A stretch of 64,000 bases of DNA, taken from positions 16,341 through 80,340 of the forward strand of contig UQAW01000003.1 in assembly GCA_900539175.1 (NCBI GenBank), given 5' to 3'. This stretch comes from an uncultured Lachnospiraceae bacterium (GTDB lineage Bacteria; Bacillota; Clostridia; Lachnospirales; Lachnospiraceae). The stretch's first letter is position 1; every line of letters starts with the position of its first letter. Below are positions 43,636-49,367 of the stretch, in pieces. Both the position numbers and the translations under genes were made by a program. Below the pieces are notes generated by a model. The model was not told the DNA's origin. It saw only the letters and a list, made by a program, of their open reading frames with translations, and made no database searches.

Positions 43636-45006
43636 ATGAGGAATAAGAAGATGAGGAATACGAAGGCGGCAGGGATTGTGCTTGCATTGGTGCTGACAAT
43701 TTCCAATGTTTATCCGGTTATGGCAACATCGGCCGCCGGAGGAAAAATGCAGGAGCAAGTGCAGAGTGGGAAAAAGGAAGGAAAGGTTATTTTTCTTGAT
43801 ACCAAGGCTGGAAAGGATGAAGCGGACGGAGCTTCAGAGAAAAATGCGGTAAAATCATTGGATCAGGCACTGAAACTGACAGGTGAGAAGGGCAGGATCA
43901 TACTTTGTGGGGAGACAAAGTTGGATGAAGCGGAAAAGACAAAGATTCCCGCAGGAATTCAGGTTCAGACTTTAAAAAATTATCAGGACTCTCTGGTTGT
44001 GACAACACCGGAGGCAACGCCGACACCAGAGGCTGCAGCAACGCCGGAAGTGACGCCGACACCGGAGGTTACGGCAGCACCGGAAGCGACGCCGACACCA
44101 GAGGCTACAGTAACGCCAACACCGGAGGTTACAGTAACGCCAACACCAGAGGTTACGGTAACACCAACACCACAGATTACACCTCAGCCGGGAGTGACAC
44201 CGACACCGGAACCAACGGCAGGACCGGAAGATATGGAAATTCCGGAAGAAAGCCCGATTGTTTCAGACAACAATACGGAGGGGCAGCAGGAAAAAGATAA
44301 GCAGCAGGACGGTGGATTGGAAGAAGAGAGCACGGAAGATAAGAAGCAGGAGAATGAGACGAAAGTAAGTGATATTGAAGACCAGCAAGTTGAAGAGAAG
44401 AAAATGATGGCACTTTCTGCAAATGTTGCTTATGAGTCTGAGAACGAAGGTGACGAGACCAGTTCGGTGGATACAGAAGAAGAACGCACAGCAAAAGCAG
44501 CGGAAACGGCGAAAGAGGATCAATTGTCAGCGCTTGCCACAGCAGCTAATACAGCAGGATCCGGTAAACGTTCAATTGGAAGCATTCTGGTAGGGAATAC
44601 AGATGATTTTTATCAGAGTGCCAGTGCAGGAAACAGCACAGGAAATAATAACAATAGCTCTAATAAAGGGAATACTTCATCAGGCGGTGGAAGCAGTACA
44701 TCAGGGAATGGAACGAAGTCTTCAAATAAGGGGAGTAATTCTGGCTCTTCCACAACAAAAAAGAGTTCTTCCGGAAGTACTGCCAAGAAAGTGACAACAC
44801 AGACGCCGTCGAGAACCTCAGGCAGGTCCAGAGCATATGTGAAGACCGGTGATACGAATCAGGTGCTGCCGCTTACTGTATCTTCTGTGATGGCATTGCT
44901 GATGGGTGTCTCACTTGCAGGAATGAAGATGGAAAGAAAGCGTAATTGTATGCGCGCGCAGGCAGCAGAAGAATGGAATACGTTCCATGAGGCATGCAGA
45001 TTTTGA
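43636..45006 (+). CDS. secreted Thr/Pro-repeat surface protein with C-terminal membrane anchor and atypical sorting-like signal
   Basis: There is a signal peptide. A TPEATPTPEV repeat block is followed by a Ser/Gly/Asn-rich low-complexity region. The C-terminus reads KTGDTN, then a hydrophobic helix, then KMERKR. Confidence 0.55.
   Translation: MRNKKMRNTKAAGIVLALVLTISNVYPVMATSAAGGKMQEQVQSGKKEGKVIFLDTKAGKDEADGASEKNAVKSLDQALKLTGEKGRIILCGETKLDEAEKTKIPAGIQVQTLKNYQDSLVVTTPEATPTPEAAATPEVTPTPEVTAAPEATPTPEATVTPTPEVTVTPTPEVTVTPTPQITPQPGVTPTPEPTAGPEDMEIPEESPIVSDNNTEGQQEKDKQQDGGLEEESTEDKKQENETKVSDIEDQQVEEKKMMALSANVAYESENEGDETSSVDTEEERTAKAAETAKEDQLSALATAANTAGSGKRSIGSILVGNTDDFYQSASAGNSTGNNNNSSNKGNTSSGGGSSTSGNGTKSSNKGSNSGSSTTKKSSSGSTAKKVTTQTPSRTSGRSRAYVKTGDTNQVLPLTVSSVMALLMGVSLAGMKMERKRNCMRAQAAEEWNTFHEACRF
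44010..44200 (+). repeat. intragenic tandem repeats encoding the (T/A)PEVTPTPE linker
   Basis: Units of about 24-27 nt, ACGCCGACACCGGAGGTTACGG-like, repeat about seven times. Confidence 0.6.
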
Positions 45007-45030
45007 ACAATTCCTAACATATTGTGAACA

Positions 45031-45066
45031 ACCCTCCCATATAGTATAAATATGGGAGGGACTTTT
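45031..45066 (+). terminator. hairpin terminator (11-bp stem plus TTTTT) abutting the next start codon
   Basis: The stem ccctcccatat...atatgggaggg is followed by ACTTTTT, then the ATG. Confidence 0.5.
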
Positions 45067-45067
45067 T

Positions 45068-45442
45068 ATGAATCAGACACAGCCGGTTGTACAAAAGATG
45101 TTACGTGTATTGAAAGCACTTCTGGCAGCATATCTATTGACTACTGTTTGTCTGATGATTCTTGCATTTCTTCTGCTGAAACTGGACTTGAATGAGGGGA
45201 ATGTGAATATTGGAATCATCATAACGTATCTGCTGTCTTGTTTCCTCGGGGGCTTCATTTTGGGAAAGACCATGGGAAGGAGAAAATTTCTCTGGGGCAT
45301 GGGGCTTGGTGCGGCTTATTTTGTGATAGCGCTGGTGATTTCAGCAATTGCATATCAGGGGATGCCCTCTGTAGCTACCCATGTGATCACTACGATGTTG
45401 CTCTGCGTCGGAGGAGGCATGGGAGGGGGAATGCTATCATAA
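45068..45442 (+). CDS. small integral membrane protein (4 predicted TM helices)
   Basis: The product is hydrophobic and 124 aa. A GGGAGGG ribosome-binding site precedes it. The gene sits immediately upstream of the SCIFF gene. Confidence 0.5.
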   Translation: MNQTQPVVQKMLRVLKALLAAYLLTTVCLMILAFLLLKLDLNEGNVNIGIIITYLLSCFLGGFILGKTMGRRKFLWGMGLGAAYFVIALVISAIAYQGMPSVATHVITTMLLCVGGGMGGGMLS

Positions 45443-45512
45443 AAAAACACTTTAAAAATTGAGAAGGCTATGTTATAATCATATCTAGCTAAAATATAAG
45501 GAGGAACAAGCG

Positions 45513-45656
45513 ATGAAGCATATCAAAACTTTGAATACCAAAAGTTTACAGAATACAGTGAAAAAAGGCGGATGCGGCGAATGTCAGACTTCCTGCCAGT
45601 CTGCATGCAAGACTTCTTGTACTGTAGGAAACCAGAGCTGCGAACATAAAAACTGA
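45513..45656 (+). CDS. SCIFF six-cysteine ranthipeptide precursor (47 aa)
   Basis: The translation MKHIKTLNTKSLQNTVKKGGCGECQTSCQSACKTSCTVGNQSCEHKN has six Cys in the C-terminal core. AAGGAGG lies 7-8 nt upstream. The gene lies 160 nt upstream of a SPASM radical SAM gene and matches the TIGR03973 family pattern. Confidence 0.8.
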   Translation: MKHIKTLNTKSLQNTVKKGGCGECQTSCQSACKTSCTVGNQSCEHKN

Positions 45657-45819
45657 TTATGCGACCAGACCCTGATTGGTCTGGTGACAGGTCTGTGGGA
45701 GAATTCCTGCAGACACGCTCTAGTGAACGGGACAGTACACTAGTAATAGAACGCAGAGAAAGAATCAATGTTCCCAGGCCGCAAGGTTATGGGAACATTG
45801 TCTTGAAGGGAGAAGGCTT

Positions 45820-47178
45820 TTGATACATCAATATAAAAGCAATGGATACAACATCGTGCTGGATATTAACAGCGGTTCGGTTCATGTAGTTGATGATCTG
45901 GTATATGACGTGCTGGAACAGATGCAGAAGTCCGATGACGGAGAAGAAATCAGCCGTAATCTGGAAGTCAGGTATCCGTTGGACGAGATAAGAGAAGCAG
46001 TGAAAGAATGCGAAGAATTGAAAAGACAGGGAATGTTGTTTACAACAGATATTTACGAAAAGGCCGTGGATGCTTTTCGGGACCGGCCGGTCGTTGTAAA
46101 GGCACTTTGTCTTCACATTGCGCATGACTGCAACCTTGCCTGCCGTTATTGCTTTGCTGAGGAAGGTGAATATCACGGAAGAAGGGCTTTGATGTCCTTT
46201 GAAGTGGGGAAAAAGGCTTTGGATTTTCTGATCGCCAATTCCGGAAGCAGAAGGAATCTGGAAGTGGATTTCTTCGGCGGAGAACCGCTTATGAACTGGC
46301 AGGTGGTGAAGGATCTGGTTGCATATGGCAGGGAACAGGAAAAAGTACATAATAAGAATTTCCGTTTCACATTGACAACCAATGGAGTTTTGTTAAATGA
46401 TGAGATCATGGAATTCTGCAATCGAGAAATGGGAAATGTCGTTTTAAGCATTGACGGAAGAAAAGAAGTTCATGATTTCATGCGTCCCTTCCGGAATGGA
46501 AAAGGAAGCTATGATCTGATTATACCGAAATTCCAGAAATTTGCGGATAGCCGGAATCAGGACAAGTATTATGTGCGCGGCACATTTACACATTTCAATC
46601 TGGATTTTGCGAAAGATGTCCTGCATCTGGCAGATCTTGGCTTTAAGCAGATTTCTGTGGAACCGGTCGTGGCTCCGCCGGAAGCCGATTACGCCATCCG
46701 GGAGGAAGATTTGCCGATCATCTTTGAACAGTATGACATTCTGGCAAAAGAGATGATTCGGCGGGAGAAAGAAGGAAGAGGGTTTAATTTCTTTCATTTT
46801 ATGATTGATTTGACAGGAGGTCCCTGCGTGTACAAACGTTTGTCCGGCTGTGGTTCGGGAACGGAGTATCTGGCGGTCACGCCGTGGGGAGATTTCTATC
46901 CCTGTCATCAGTTTGTGGGGAATGAAGCATTTTTGCTCGGCAATGTGGAAGAAGGTGTCGTGCAAAGAGATCTGATCTGTGAATTTCAGCAGTGTAATGT
47001 CTATGCCAAAGATGAATGCAGAAACTGTTTTGCGAGATTTTACTGCAGCGGTGGGTGTGCGGCAAATGCCTATAACTTCCATCAGAAGATTACCGCTGTT
47101 TACGAGGTTGGATGTAAGATGCAGCAAAAGCGGATTGAGTGTGCATTGATGATAAAGGCAGCATTAGCTGAAGAATAA
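45820..47178 (+). CDS. SCIFF radical SAM maturase (SPASM-domain ranthipeptide synthase)
   Basis: The N-terminus MIHQYKSNGYNIVLDINSGSVH is typical of this maturase. The radical SAM CxxxCxxC is CNLACRYC. A C-terminal Cys-rich SPASM domain follows. The gene uses a TTG start. Confidence 0.82.
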   Translation: MIHQYKSNGYNIVLDINSGSVHVVDDLVYDVLEQMQKSDDGEEISRNLEVRYPLDEIREAVKECEELKRQGMLFTTDIYEKAVDAFRDRPVVVKALCLHIAHDCNLACRYCFAEEGEYHGRRALMSFEVGKKALDFLIANSGSRRNLEVDFFGGEPLMNWQVVKDLVAYGREQEKVHNKNFRFTLTTNGVLLNDEIMEFCNREMGNVVLSIDGRKEVHDFMRPFRNGKGSYDLIIPKFQKFADSRNQDKYYVRGTFTHFNLDFAKDVLHLADLGFKQISVEPVVAPPEADYAIREEDLPIIFEQYDILAKEMIRREKEGRGFNFFHFMIDLTGGPCVYKRLSGCGSGTEYLAVTPWGDFYPCHQFVGNEAFLLGNVEEGVVQRDLICEFQQCNVYAKDECRNCFARFYCSGGCAANAYNFHQKITAVYEVGCKMQQKRIECALMIKAALAEE

Positions 47179-47204: not shown

Positions 47205-49367
47205 ATGAAGAAAAATCAAAGTATCATCACTCTGATTGTGACGTTGCTGGTGACCGTTCTTCTGGGATTTACGGTGGTTGCAGGCTGGGGGCCTACAGGA
47301 ACCGGTTCCATGAAGAATATTCGTACCGGGCTGGATCTGTCCGGAGGTGTCAGCATCACCTATCAGGCAAAGGAGAGTAATCCTTCATCAGAAGATATGC
47401 AGGATACGATCGGAAAACTTCAGAAACGTGTAGAACAGTACAGTACAGAGGCTCAGGTTTACCAGCAGGGAAGTAACCGGATCTGTATCGAGATTCCGGG
47501 AGCATCGGATGCCAACACAATTCTGCAGGAACTGGGCAAGCCAGGTTCACTGCTGTTTCAGGATCCGGACGGAAATACGGTTCTGGAGGGAACGGATATT
47601 GCCGATGCGCAGGGAGTAACGCAGTCAGATCAAACTACAAATCAGAGAGAATATGTTGTTGATCTGACGCTGAATGACAGCGGCAAGAGCAAATTTGCAG
47701 AGGCTACACAGGCGAATATCGGAAAAAGTATTTCCATCGTTTATGACGGAGAGGTGATCAGCGCACCTACTGTCCAGACGGCAATCACTGATGGGAAATG
47801 TCAGATTACCGGTATGGAGAGCATTGATGCAGCCAGAGAACTGGCTTCCACCATTCGTATCGGTGCATTGTCATTGGAACTGGAGGAGCTGTACTCCAAC
47901 GTTGTAGCTGCACAGCTTGGCCAAGAAGCGCTTAGTACCAGCGTTGTGGCAGGGTTGATCGGGATTATCCTGATCGTTATCTTCATGATCTGTGTTTACC
48001 GGATTCCTGGTATTGCGGCAGGATGGTCGCTGATTCTTTATACATTCCTGATGCTGGGGGCTTTGAATGCGTTTGATTTAACACTGACATTGCCGGGAAT
48101 CGCAGGTATCATCCTGTCGATTGGTATGGCAGTGGATGCAAATGTGATTATTTATGCCCGTATCCGTGAGGAAATTTCAGCCGGCAGAAGTGTACGAAAC
48201 GCTATTTTAGCCGGTTTTCAGAAAGCTTTTTCTGCAATTTTGGATGGCAACGTTACAACACTGATTGCAGCAGGAATTCTGTATTTCATGGGAACAGGAA
48301 CAATCCGCGGATTCTCTATCACACTTGCGCTTGGTATTGTGTTGTCTATGATTTCCGCACTGCTGATTTCCAGAATGCTGATCAGTGCTTTGTATGGTGT
48401 TGGGTTTAAGGATGAAAAATTCTTTGGGCGTCAGAAAGAACGCAAGATTGTAAATTTTGTTGGAAAGAGAAAAATCTTCTTTATACTTTCGGCAGTGTTG
48501 GTTCTGTCTGCACCGGCGGGAATGGGTGTGTTCCAGGCTAAGGATGGACACACGCTGAATTTCAGCCTTGAATTTATCGGAGGTACTTCCACAACAGTAA
48601 CTTTCCCGGAGGATATGAGTATCAGTCAGCTGGACAGCGATGTGCAGCCAGTGGTTCAGGAAGTAACCGGTGATGCCAATATTATGTTCCAGAAGGTTGT
48701 TGACAGTGAAGCCGTTATTATTAAGACACGTGAACTTACCGTAGAGGAGAGAGAGACGCTGAATCAGTCTCTTGCAGATAATTTCGGTGTGGATAAAGCA
48801 GCAATTACAGCAGAGAATATCTCTTCTACCATGAGTGATGAGATGAGATCGGATGCGATACTTGCGGTGATCGTGGCTGTTATCTTTATGTTGCTGTACA
48901 TCTGGTTCCGGTTCAAGGATATCCGGTTTGCTTCCAGTGCCGTACTTGCATTGGTACATGATATCGTCGTTGTAATTGCATTCTATGCATGGTTCCGGTT
49001 CTCAGCAGGTACCACATTTATTGCAGTGCTGCTTACTATTTTAGGTTATTCTATCAACGGAACAATTGTTATCTTTGACCGTATCCGTGAGAATCTGCCG
49101 ATTATGCGCAAAGATGATCTGGATGTGATTGTGAATACATCAATCACACAGACGTTGACAAGAACGCTGTACTCATCACTTACAACGTTTGCAACAATTT
49201 TTGTTTTATATCTGATGGGTGTTCCGGCAGTCAAGGAATTTGCTCTGCCTATCATCATCGGAGTTGTCTGCGGTACTTATACATCTGTATGTATCACGGG
49301 TCCGCTTTGGTATGTGTTCAAGACGAAACTGGGCAAAAAGGTTTCCGCTCCGGCGAAAAAGAAATAA
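47205..49367 (+). CDS. secDF: protein translocase subunit SecDF (fused)
   Basis: The SecD periplasmic domain, 12 TM helices and the SecF half are present in a 720-aa product. Confidence 0.9.
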   Translation: MKKNQSIITLIVTLLVTVLLGFTVVAGWGPTGTGSMKNIRTGLDLSGGVSITYQAKESNPSSEDMQDTIGKLQKRVEQYSTEAQVYQQGSNRICIEIPGASDANTILQELGKPGSLLFQDPDGNTVLEGTDIADAQGVTQSDQTTNQREYVVDLTLNDSGKSKFAEATQANIGKSISIVYDGEVISAPTVQTAITDGKCQITGMESIDAARELASTIRIGALSLELEELYSNVVAAQLGQEALSTSVVAGLIGIILIVIFMICVYRIPGIAAGWSLILYTFLMLGALNAFDLTLTLPGIAGIILSIGMAVDANVIIYARIREEISAGRSVRNAILAGFQKAFSAILDGNVTTLIAAGILYFMGTGTIRGFSITLALGIVLSMISALLISRMLISALYGVGFKDEKFFGRQKERKIVNFVGKRKIFFILSAVLVLSAPAGMGVFQAKDGHTLNFSLEFIGGTSTTVTFPEDMSISQLDSDVQPVVQEVTGDANIMFQKVVDSEAVIIKTRELTVEERETLNQSLADNFGVDKAAITAENISSTMSDEMRSDAILAVIVAVIFMLLYIWFRFKDIRFASSAVLALVHDIVVVIAFYAWFRFSAGTTFIAVLLTILGYSINGTIVIFDRIRENLPIMRKDDLDVIVNTSITQTLTRTLYSSLTTFATIFVLYLMGVPAVKEFALPIIIGVVCGTYTSVCITGPLWYVFKTKLGKKVSAPAKKK

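What the first reader, a model, noticed from the sequence alone, without database searches (positions are those of the whole stretch)
45513..47178. Unannotated SCIFF ranthipeptide precursor with its SPASM radical SAM maturase and a structured spacer
A 47-codon gene, missed by the ORF track because it is under 60 aa, encodes MKHIKTLNTKSLQNTVKKGGCGECQTSCQSACKTSCTVGNQSCEHKN. Six Cys in a C-terminal core of about 25 residues, behind a strong ribosome-binding site, is the hallmark of the SCIFF family found across Clostridia. It lies 160 nt upstream of a radical SAM gene with the characteristic MIHQYKSNGYNIV N-terminus, CNLACRYC motif and a Cys-rich SPASM tail, which is the dedicated thioether-forming maturase. 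The 160-nt spacer holds two hairpins (45664-45686, and about 45764-45794 just upstream of the maturase TTG start). These could attenuate read-through to set the precursor:enzyme ratio. A small 4-TM membrane protein gene (45068-45442) sits directly upstream and may be a co-conserved partner. The mature product and function of SCIFF peptides are still poorly defined, so a clean chromosomal copy with intact neighbours is worth noting.
Basis: partly seen in the sequence, partly recalled or inferred. Interest (0 to 1): 0.6.

Follow-up and report, generated by a model that had tools for sequence, protein, structure and literature searches.

The report
Known SCIFF peptide–maturase gene pair
This is an ordinary, already catalogued copy of the SCIFF six-cysteine peptide gene and its radical SAM maturase, as found across Clostridia; the only mildly new point is that a terminator-like RNA hairpin between the two genes is kept in every related genome examined.

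Summary
The 47-codon ORF (45513-45656) scores 87.8 bits on TIGR03973 (cutoff 50). The downstream TTG-started gene (45820-47178) scores 802 bits on TIGR03974 (cutoff 425). It is 62% identical end to end to CteB (PDB 5WGG), with all cluster cysteines conserved. The upstream membrane gene is TIGR04086/DUF3792. None of this is new. The exact three proteins are already in public collections, two of them under these family names.

The 163-nt spacer folds far better than shuffles (z = -5.35). It has four hairpins, not two. Only the last (45766-45800) is conserved in relatives, with compensatory changes at 7 of 14 pairs.

All 124 distinct scfA-scfB spacers from Lachnospiraceae carry a strong hairpin. 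So do the four Acetivibrio, Pseudoclostridium and Ruminiclostridium loci, three of them with canonical terminators. scfA has a conserved strong promoter, SD and ATG. scfB mostly starts with GTG or TTG. This fits a leaky terminator or stabiliser favouring precursor over enzyme, a standard RiPP operon design. It is untested experimentally.

The parts
45032..45060 (+). Terminator-like hairpin ending the upstream surface-protein gene. It marks the 5' boundary of the DUF3792-scfA-scfB-secDF block. Its 3' arm overlaps the SD of the DUF3792 gene.
   Evidence: 11-pair stem, then ACTTTTTATG. Sequence.
45068..45442 (+). TIGR04086/DUF3792 small membrane protein (124 aa), a frequent upstream neighbour of scfA.
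   Evidence: TIGR04086 95.3 bits (cutoff 30). PF12670 106.4 bits; upstream on the same strand in 73 of 113 distinct loci; also present in Pseudoclostridium and Ruminiclostridium; hydropathy.
45451..45479 (+). Predicted scfA promoter: TTTAAA, 17-nt spacer, extended -10 TGTTATAAT.
   Evidence: 10 of 12 matches with TG; both elements conserved in relatives while the spacer between them varies; the same type lies upstream of CteA.
45498..45504 (+). Shine-Dalgarno AAGGAGG of scfA, 8 nt before the ATG.
   Evidence: sequence. Invariant in the alignment.
45513..45656 (+). scfA, the SCIFF ranthipeptide precursor (47 aa). Cys at 21, 24, 28, 32, 36, 43; Thr at 34 and 37.
   Evidence: TIGR03973 87.8 bits (cutoff 50). 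PF13165 88.9 bits (cutoff 27); residue positions; exact sequence already public under this name.
45664..45743 (+). Three lineage-specific hairpins: H1 45664-45685, H2 45691-45714, H3 45720-45743. They form an insertion relative to the closest non-conspecific relative. No evidence of conserved function.
   Evidence: structure; absent from L163, which has 90% ScfB identity; no blastn match in 160 loci. H1 is unique in the window.
45766..45800 (+). H4, the conserved terminator-like hairpin. The extended stem runs 45760-45804 with dG about -22 kcal/mol. Its tail GUCUUG runs straight into the scfB SD. Proposed leaky terminator or mRNA 3' stabiliser.
   Evidence: perfect 11-nt arms; dG -21.9; conserved in relatives at 81-90% ScfB identity; 7 of 14 pairs show compensatory changes.
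45806..45816 (+). SD region AAGGGAGAAGG of scfB. It is unpaired in the centroid structure.
45820..47178 (+). scfB, the SCIFF thioether-forming radical SAM/SPASM maturase (452 aa, TTG start).
   Evidence: TIGR03974 802 bits (cutoff 425), model positions 1-451. CteB 5WGG E = 9e-193; 62% identity, all cluster Cys conserved.
47205..49367 (+). Fused SecDF gene, 26 nt after scfB with no terminator between them. Probably co-transcribed. A conserved neighbour.
   Evidence: family hits; no terminator; downstream in 152 of 162 loci, median gap 24 nt.

Best explanation
This is a standard chromosomal SCIFF ranthipeptide locus of a Lachnospiraceae bacterium.

scfA encodes a 47-aa precursor: a leader of about 20 residues and a six-Cys core. 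ScfB is its dedicated radical SAM/SPASM maturase. By homology to CteB and Tte1186, ScfB binds the leader through an N-terminal RRE domain. It uses a 5'-deoxyadenosyl radical and auxiliary Fe-S clusters to form a thioether between Cys32 and a nearby Thr (34 or 37).

Expression appears to be built to give much more precursor than enzyme. scfA has its own conserved extended -10 promoter, a perfect SD and an ATG start. A conserved hairpin (H4, 45766-45800) lies between the genes and most likely acts as a leaky intrinsic terminator and/or 3'-end stabiliser. scfB has no promoter of its own downstream of H4 and starts with TTG, so it is probably expressed by read-through. It is probably co-transcribed with secDF.

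Shown here: family membership, conservation and covariation of H4, conservation of the promoter and SD, and synteny. Inferred: the chemistry (from homologues), termination or stabilisation at H4, and the resulting precursor:enzyme ratio.
For: Identity of the genes:
- HMM scores far above curated cutoffs; rival radical SAM families fall far below theirs.
- 62% identity over 447 aa to CteB. The CX3CX2C cysteines and all CteB cysteines of the C-terminal SPASM region are conserved.
- Cys32, Thr34 and Thr37 are at the published crosslink positions.
- the same proteins, or near-identical ones, carry these names in public databases.

Spacer:
- z = -5.35.
- all 78 spacers from GTDB loci fold better than shuffles, at lengths of 60-338 nt.
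- every one of 124 distinct spacers has a strong hairpin. They fall into at least three unrelated sequence classes plus idiosyncratic canonical terminators.
- the window's H4 is conserved in relatives at 81-90% ScfB identity, with compensatory changes at 7 of 14 pairs.
- the CteA-CteB locus and two related genera carry 13-14-bp stems followed by UUUUUU directly after scfA.
- U after the stem is 3.6 of 8, against 2.0 expected.

Expression signals:
- the promoter and SD are conserved.
- no promoter-like site on the + strand inside the spacer.
- scfA starts with ATG in 115 of 120 loci. scfB starts with GTG or TTG in 78 of 124.
Against: - There are no expression data for this or any related locus. 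No held paper addresses the spacer.
- In the window the U-tail of H4 is poor (GUCUUGAA). The consensus scanner does not call it a terminator. It also misses the apparently canonical one in L174.
- Across loci, A upstream of the stem is enriched as much as U downstream, so the strand-asymmetry test is not significant (p = 0.9). The hairpins could therefore be stabilisers or processing sites rather than terminators.
- H1-H3, which give much of the window's folding energy, are not conserved.
- The number and position of thioethers in native SCIFF peptides are disputed in the literature. The mature product is unknown.
Confidence: 0.85

Rival explanations
1. The spacer hairpins do not terminate transcription. 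They act only after transcription, as 3'-exonuclease barriers or RNase processing sites. A processed scfA mRNA then outlives the scfB-secDF part of a single long transcript.
For: - Weak U-tail in the window.
- No U-versus-A asymmetry around the strongest hairpins.
- Many class A and B tails are short, such as AUU or AUUUGU.
- H4 ends only about 6 nt before the scfB SD, which leaves little room for a termination and release zone.
Against: - Several lineages have textbook terminators with 6 U at the same position.
- U after the stem is enriched 1.8-fold over composition.
- The two mechanisms are not exclusive and give the same outcome.
Confidence: 0.3
2. The structure in the window's spacer is mostly non-functional. 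H1-H3 are a recently inserted palindromic sequence, and the low folding energy has no regulatory meaning.
For: - H1-H3 are absent from the relative at 90% ScfB identity.
- They have no match in 160 other loci.
- Spacer length varies from 60 to 520 nt among relatives. Some long spacers hold very long perfect palindromes.
Against: - This holds only for H1-H3. H4 is conserved with covariation.
- Every distinct spacer keeps at least one strong hairpin.
- H1 is not a dispersed repeat within the 64-kb window.
Confidence: 0.5
3. The spacer is a ligand- or protein-responsive riboregulator, such as a riboswitch, thermometer or antitermination target, that controls scfB and secDF in response to a signal.
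For: - High structural content.
- H1's 5' arm could pair with either of two GGUCUG copies (direct repeat D3), which hints at mutually exclusive helices.
- Reported quorum-sensing phenotypes of SCIFF mutants would fit regulated expression.
Against: - No Rfam family matches, even at E <= 10 in the window or at gathering score in 9 representative loci.
- No sequence conservation across lineages beyond simple stems.
- The hairpin classes are unrelated in sequence, which argues against a specific ligand pocket.
- The part with possible alternative pairing (H1/H2) is not conserved.
Confidence: 0.05
4. The radical SAM enzyme is not a SCIFF maturase but belongs to a neighbouring family: anaerobic sulfatase maturase, QhpD, PapB or an orphan 'not_ScfB'.
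For: It shares the SPASM architecture and gives sub-threshold hits to these families.
Against: One search gives these scores:
- TIGR03974: 802 bits, cutoff 425.
- TIGR03942 (anSME): 101.9 against 349.
- TIGR03906 (QhpD): 266.6 against 453.
- NF047865 (PapB): 276.4 against 340.
- NF040492 (orphan): 603.5 against 855.

A bona fide SCIFF gene lies 163 nt upstream. ScfB is 62% identical to CteB.
Confidence: 0.01

Closest known systems
CteA/CteB (thermocellin) of Acetivibrio (Clostridium) thermocellus; crystal structures 5WGG and 5WHY
   Same: - ScfB is 62% identical over 447 aa, with an end-to-end alignment and every cluster Cys conserved.
- The precursor core is GGCGECQTSCQSACKTSCTV(G/A)NQSCE, identical but for one residue.
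- Both loci have an extended -10 promoter, then scfA, then a structured spacer of about 150 nt with a hairpin, then scfB, then secD/F downstream.
   Different: - The hairpin sequence is unrelated. The CteA locus has a canonical U6 terminator, while the window's tail is weak.
- The CteB locus has an HD-domain gene between scfB and separate secD and secF genes, and lacks the DUF3792 gene upstream.
- The window has a fused secDF directly after scfB.
Tte1186a/Tte1186 of Caldanaerobacter subterraneus, the first SCIFF pair characterised in vitro
   Same: Same family. The crosslink was reported between the fourth Cys (Cys32) and Thr37, and both residues are present at the same numbering here.
   Different: Not compared at sequence level here. 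It is a different order of Clostridia.
PapA/PapB (freyrasin) and QhpD, the neighbouring radical SAM/SPASM thioether-forming families
   Same: Same enzyme architecture and same kind of non-alpha thioether chemistry.
   Different: Sub-threshold HMM scores: PapB 276 against 340, QhpD 267 against 453. Those substrates have Cys-X3-Asp repeats or are a protein subunit. This peptide has the SCIFF core instead.
Hairpin or leaky terminator between the precursor gene and the modification genes in other RiPP operons (for example nisA-nisB, sboA-albA). Cited from general knowledge, not checked here.
   Same: A strong promoter, a short precursor ORF and a stem-loop before the enzyme genes, giving excess precursor transcript.
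   Different: This has not been shown experimentally for any SCIFF locus. Here the downstream operon continues into a housekeeping gene (secDF).

Membership tests
SCIFF precursor (TIGR03973 / PF13165) | Scores above the curated HMM cutoff over the full model | tested here: met
   87.8 bits against 50, model positions 1-43 of 43; 88.9 bits against 27.
SCIFF precursor (TIGR03973 / PF13165) | Six Cys in a C-terminal core within a peptide of about 45 aa | tested here: met
   47 aa, with Cys at 21, 24, 28, 32, 36 and 43.
SCIFF precursor (TIGR03973 / PF13165) | Encoded within 500 bp of a TIGR03974 radical SAM gene (the criterion used in PMC5300114) | tested here: met
   163 nt upstream of scfB, on the same strand.
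SCIFF precursor (TIGR03973 / PF13165) | Occurs in Clostridia | tested here: met
   the closest relatives are all Lachnospiraceae or Clostridia (Lacrimispora, Pelethocola, Scatomonas, Blautia).
SCIFF precursor (TIGR03973 / PF13165) | Carries a radical-SAM-installed non-alpha thioether in the mature peptide | not testable with these tools
   Needs co-expression and MS/NMR. The donor Cys32 and the acceptors Thr34 and Thr37 are present.
ScfB SCIFF maturase (TIGR03974) | Scores above the equivalog cutoff and below the cutoff of the orphan 'not_ScfB' exception model | tested here: met
   TIGR03974 802 against 425. NF040492 603.5 against 855.
ScfB SCIFF maturase (TIGR03974) | CX3CX2C radical SAM cluster motif | tested here: met
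   Cys 104/108/111 (CNLACRYC), aligned with CteB 107/111/114.
ScfB SCIFF maturase (TIGR03974) | C-terminal SPASM domain with the Cys ligands of two auxiliary 4Fe-4S clusters | tested here: met
   Cys 336, 344, 362, 400, 403, 409, 413, 432 and 441 match CteB Cys 339, 347, 365, 403, 406, 412, 416, 435 and 444. The Pfam SPASM score alone is just under its cutoff (20.4 against 21.5).
ScfB SCIFF maturase (TIGR03974) | N-terminal leader-binding (RRE-type) domain | tested here: inconclusive
   residues 1-95 align without large gaps to the N-terminal region of CteB. No structure was predicted and no RRE model was run here.
ScfB SCIFF maturase (TIGR03974) | Catalyses SAM-dependent thioether formation on ScfA | not testable with these tools
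   Needs a biochemical assay.
Intrinsic (factor-independent) terminator or attenuator | Stable stem-loop in the transcript | tested here: met
   H4 has 11 perfect pairs plus an inner stem, dG about -22 kcal/mol.
Intrinsic (factor-independent) terminator or attenuator | The structure, not the sequence, is conserved (covariation) | tested here: met
   7 of 14 pairs have compensatory changes in 11 sequences; unrelated hairpins occupy the same position in other lineages.
Intrinsic (factor-independent) terminator or attenuator | U-rich tract of about 5 or more U in 8 nt directly after the stem | tested here: inconclusive
   - The window has 3 U in TCTTGAAG after the perfect arms, or 5 of 9 (AUUGUCUUG) if counted from the G+C core. 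The scanner does not call it.
- Close relatives have longer tails, GUCUUGUUUAUC and UCUUUUUG.
- Across loci, 66 of 119 have at least 4 U in 8.
Intrinsic (factor-independent) terminator or attenuator | RNA 3' ends and a drop in read-through at the site in vivo or in vitro | not testable with these tools
   No transcript data available.
TIGR04086 / DUF3792 membrane protein | Scores above the curated HMM cutoffs | tested here: met
   95.3 against 30; 106.4 against 31.3.

The most novel reading that the evidence does not exclude
The SCIFF module may be functionally tied to the accessory Sec machinery. DUF3792-scfA-scfB lies immediately upstream of secDF in 152 of 162 Lachnospiraceae loci. In two of the four loci from other orders it sits between yajC and secD/secF, the genes of one membrane complex. 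The conserved hairpin after scfA could then be a regulated attenuator that couples bursts of peptide expression to expression of scfB and secDF. The modified peptide or the DUF3792 protein might act at or through the SecDF-YajC complex, rather than the arrangement being mere inherited synteny.
Probability: 0.08. Interest if true: 0.6.

Novelty: already known. Interest (0 to 1): 0.15.

Why it matters
For the genome scan, this finding can be closed as a correct call on a known, curated system. It adds no new biology about the peptide or the enzyme.

Its modest value lies in the comparative by-product. Across 124 distinct Lachnospiraceae spacers and four loci from other Clostridia, the precursor gene always has strong expression signals and is followed by a hairpin. 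The maturase mostly has a weak start codon. The pair is almost always fused to the secDF operon.

That gives anyone studying SCIFF function a concrete expression model to test. The function is still debated, with quorum-sensing phenotypes in two Clostridium species. It is also a reminder that gene callers often miss or mis-call the peptide.

Tried and rejected
- **Rfam.** I scanned the window region at E <= 10 and nine representative loci at gathering score. There were no meaningful hits, so the spacer is not a described RNA family.
- **blastn of the window spacer against 160 related loci.** Nothing matched, so I could not use those loci to test H1-H3. I fetched closer relatives through exact-protein look-ups instead.
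- **Metagenome scan with ScfB.** It returned nothing closer than 82% identity.
- **Strand-asymmetry test for terminators, U after the stem versus A before it.** It was not significant (p = 0.9). I therefore do not claim that the hairpins are proven terminators.
- **The consensus terminator scanner.** It does not call H4. It also does not call the CteA-locus hairpin, which has a 13-14-bp stem followed by UUUUUU in the MFE. A·U pairs at the stem base probably use up the tail under its rule. I treated it as uninformative here.
- **tblastn for the DUF3792 neighbour.** It undercounted, so I replaced it with an iterated HMM.
- **Haft & Basu 2011.** I could not retrieve it by DOI or by a guessed PMC id. 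I therefore cannot say what the founding paper states about neighbours.
- **Literature searches.** Searches for SCIFF with terminator and transcript, for SCIFF gene-product names, and for SCIFF with SecD or YajC found nothing relevant.
- **Dispersed-repeat idea for H1.** Rejected within the window. It could not be tested genome-wide.
- **Structure prediction.** Not run, because the end-to-end 62% match to a solved structure made it unnecessary.
Full report
**1. What is there**

- A 47-codon ORF lies at 45513-45656. It encodes MKHIKTLNTKSLQNTVKKGGCGECQTSCQSACKTSCTVGNQSCEHKN, behind an AAGGAGG Shine-Dalgarno at 45498-45504.
- A 452-codon ORF starts 163 nt downstream with TTG at 45820 and ends at 47178.
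- A 124-codon hydrophobic ORF lies upstream at 45068-45442.
- A fused SecDF gene follows at 47205-49367, then RecJ.

**2. Family tests**

- The peptide scores 87.8 bits on TIGR03973 (cutoff 50) over the whole model. It scores 88.9 bits on Pfam SCIFF PF13165 (cutoff 27).
- The enzyme scores 802 bits on TIGR03974 (cutoff 425), covering model positions 1-451. This also confirms the TTG start.

Every rival radical SAM/SPASM family is far below its own cutoff:

| Model | Score | Cutoff |
|---|---|---|
| Orphan 'not_ScfB' NF040492 | 603 | 855 |
| PapB | 276 | 340 |
| QhpD | 267 | 453 |
| Anaerobic sulfatase maturase | 102 | 349 |

Further support:

- Against solved structures, the enzyme aligns end to end with CteB of Acetivibrio thermocellus (5WGG/5WHY), E = 9e-193. 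Identity is 62% over 447 residues.
- The CX3CX2C cysteines (104/108/111) and every CteB cysteine of the C-terminal SPASM region have counterparts.
- The peptide's fourth Cys is Cys32, and Thr is present at 34 and 37. This is the numbering of the published crosslink sites: Cys32-Thr37 in vitro, and Cys32-Thr34 through the gamma carbon in vivo (PMC8326336; PMC8172795).
- The upstream gene is a TIGR04086/DUF3792 membrane protein (95 bits against 30). Hydropathy gives three clear hydrophobic segments and a weaker Gly-rich fourth.

**3. Is it new?**

No.

- The exact peptide, maturase and membrane-protein sequences are already in NCBI, ENA and Logan, and the peptide and membrane protein also in JGI. 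They occur on 327, 299 and 593 contigs respectively. The peptide is labelled 'six-cysteine peptide SCIFF' and the membrane protein 'TIGR04086 family'. The exact maturase sequence carries no source name there.
- Gene callers on contigs with the identical maturase call all five genes in the same order.
- Relatives at 81-87% identity are annotated 'thioether cross-link-forming SCIFF peptide maturase'.
- The family was defined in 2011. PMC5300114 treats it as a model 'pure' subsystem in which every ScfA has a ScfB within 500 bp.
- A recent pangenome study finds SCIFF ranthipeptide clusters to be among the most conserved biosynthetic clusters in Clostridia, with at most one per species (bioRxiv 10.1101/2025.02.12.637840).

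**4. The structured spacer in the window**

This is the only part of the finding that goes beyond annotation.

- The 163-nt spacer folds to -65.2 kcal/mol, against -43.8 +/- 4 for dinucleotide shuffles (z = -5.35).
- It has four hairpins, not two: H1 45664-45685, H2 45691-45714, H3 45720-45743 and H4 45766-45800.
- No Rfam family matches.
- The spacer has no nucleotide-level match in 160 related loci. I therefore fetched closer relatives.

Results from the closer relatives:

- Strains with 99-100% identical ScfB have the same spacer with one to three SNPs.
- A relative at 90% ScfB identity lacks H1-H3 altogether. It keeps H4 starting 21 nt after the stop codon.
- Relatives at 84-87% keep H4 too.

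In an alignment of 11 H4-type hairpins, 7 of 14 predicted pairs show compensatory double changes. The outer stem varies as AAUG/CAUU, GAUG/CAUC and GGUG/CACC. The inner stem is entirely rewritten but still pairs.

So H4 is under selection as a structure.

**5. Generality of the hairpin**

- I collected 80 genome loci, 80 metagenome loci and 13 close-relative loci, all Lachnospiraceae-like. They give 124 distinct scfA-scfB spacers of 60-520 nt.
- All 78 spacers tested fold better than their shuffles.
- Every distinct spacer has a strong hairpin. Median dG is -20.5 kcal/mol, and the hairpin starts a median of 28 nt after the stop codon.
- The hairpins fall into at least three sequence classes:
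  - UAAGCAGCGG-loop-CCGCUGCUUAUU, in 65 spacers
  - GACCGUnCGC-loop-GCGnACGGUCAUUUGU, in 14 spacers
  - the window's GUGUUCCC...GGGAACAUU type, in 15-17 spacers
- A further 28 are idiosyncratic. Many of these are textbook terminators, such as GAGGCG...CGCCUCAUUUUUU.
- Outside the family, the characterised CteA-CteB locus and loci from Pseudoclostridium and Ruminiclostridium have 13-14-bp stems followed by UUUUUU right after scfA. Their spacers are 138-339 nt.

Unrelated hairpins held at the same position across orders argue for function.

Three caveats apply.

- U after the stem is enriched (3.6 of 8 against 2.0 expected). A before the stem is enriched as well, so a strand-asymmetry test is not significant (p = 0.9).
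- The window's own tail (GUCUUGAA) is weak.
- The simple scanner does not call H4 a terminator.

**6. Other expression signals**

- Upstream of scfA lies TTTAAA, a 17-nt spacer, then TGTTATAAT (45451-45479). Both promoter elements and the AAGGAGG SD are conserved in relatives, while the sequence between them varies.
- The same promoter type precedes CteA.
- No promoter-like site lies on the + strand within the spacer. H4 ends about 6 nt before the scfB SD. scfB is therefore most simply expressed by read-through.
- scfA starts with ATG in 115 of 120 distinct loci. scfB starts with GTG or TTG in 78 of 124.
- scfB is followed after 26 nt, without a terminator, by secDF. SecDF is downstream in 152 of 162 loci, with a median gap of 24 nt.

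**7. Mechanism**

The best-supported reading has these steps.

1. A strong promoter, SD and ATG drive abundant scfA expression.
2. A conserved hairpin acts as a leaky terminator and/or 3' stabiliser.
3. Read-through transcripts carry scfB, which has a weak start codon, and secDF.
4. The result is a large excess of precursor over enzyme.

This is the usual design of RiPP operons (general knowledge).

The chemistry is inferred from CteB and Tte1186: leader binding followed by radical thioether formation at Cys32. The biological role is not settled. Mutants in two Clostridium species show altered quorum-sensing and sporulation gene expression.

**8. The neighbours**

- DUF3792 is directly upstream on the same strand in 73 of 113 distinct Lachnospiraceae loci, with a median gap of 85 nt. 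Other genes take its place elsewhere.
- In Pseudoclostridium and Ruminiclostridium the order is tgt-yajC-DUF3792-scfA-scfB-(one gene)-secD-secF. The trio thus sits inside what is the yajC-secD-secF operon in other bacteria.
- No held paper mentions SCIFF together with SecD or YajC.
- yajC and tgt are not in this window.
- This may be nothing more than inherited synteny. I give a functional link low probability.

**9. Verdict**

The system is already known and catalogued, so interest is low. The comparative result on the hairpin, the promoter and the start codons is a tidy but unsurprising addition that awaits transcript mapping.

Noticed in passing
window 45032-45070: The terminator-like hairpin after the surface-protein gene (CCCTCCCATAT...ATATGGGAGGG, then ACTTTTT) contains the probable SD (GGGAGGG) of the DUF3792 gene in its 3' arm. 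The ATG at 45068 follows the U-run directly. Read-through transcripts would have a sequestered RBS. A possible overlapping promoter (TTGTGA, 17 nt, TATAAA at 45022-45050) would start a transcript lacking the 5' arm. That promoter was read by eye and fails the scanner's rule.
   Followed up: no
window 43636-45006: A 456-aa ORF with no family hit. It has a signal-peptide-like N-terminus, long Pro/Thr-rich repeats (TPTPE...), a Ser/Gly/Asn-rich region, and a C-terminal sorting-signal-like end (VKTGD, a hydrophobic stretch, then KMERKR). Its length differs between strains with identical ScfB (456 against 464 aa). Relatives match only at 21-35%. It is probably a fast-evolving cell-surface protein.
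   Followed up: no
L003, L010, L014, L018, L024, L030, L077 and others (spacer between scfA and scfB): 65 of 124 distinct Lachnospiraceae spacers share one hairpin with a near-invariant stem, UAAGCAGCGG-(variable loop of 4-10 nt)-CCGCUGCUUAUU. They span several genera, including Blautia, Fusicatenibacter and Marvinbryantia. The stem sequence is more conserved than a generic terminator would need, although my regex fixed its 6-nt core. Outer pairs covary.
   Followed up: partly
L175 946-6344; L176 1-6344: In Pseudoclostridium and Ruminiclostridium, DUF3792-scfA-scfB is inserted between yajC and secD/secF, with tgt (and, in L176, queA) upstream. In A. thermocellus and A. saccincola, a signal peptidase II gene and a pseudouridine synthase gene precede scfA instead. 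An HD-domain gene separates scfB from secD.
   Followed up: partly
L165 against L166; L167/L168 1118-1504; L169 1167-1355: Gene callers handle the peptide inconsistently. No SCIFF gene is called on L165, although the locus with the same maturase and an identical scfA-scfB spacer, L166, has one. A spurious 128-aa ORF spanning the spacer is called on L167 and L168 in place of scfA. An N-terminally extended 62-aa version is called on L169.
   Followed up: no
L051, L063, L070, L079, L022 (scfA-scfB spacers of 260-340 nt): Some spacers are very long, with z-scores of -8 to -10. They contain long near-perfect palindromes of 25-35 bp per arm, in addition to the usual hairpin. These may be inserted palindromic elements.
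   Followed up: no
L007, L165/L166: In a few lineages (Candidatus Scatomonas pullistercoris, Candidatus Pelethocola) scfB is followed directly by recJ, with no secDF between them. The secDF linkage is therefore not absolute.
   Followed up: no
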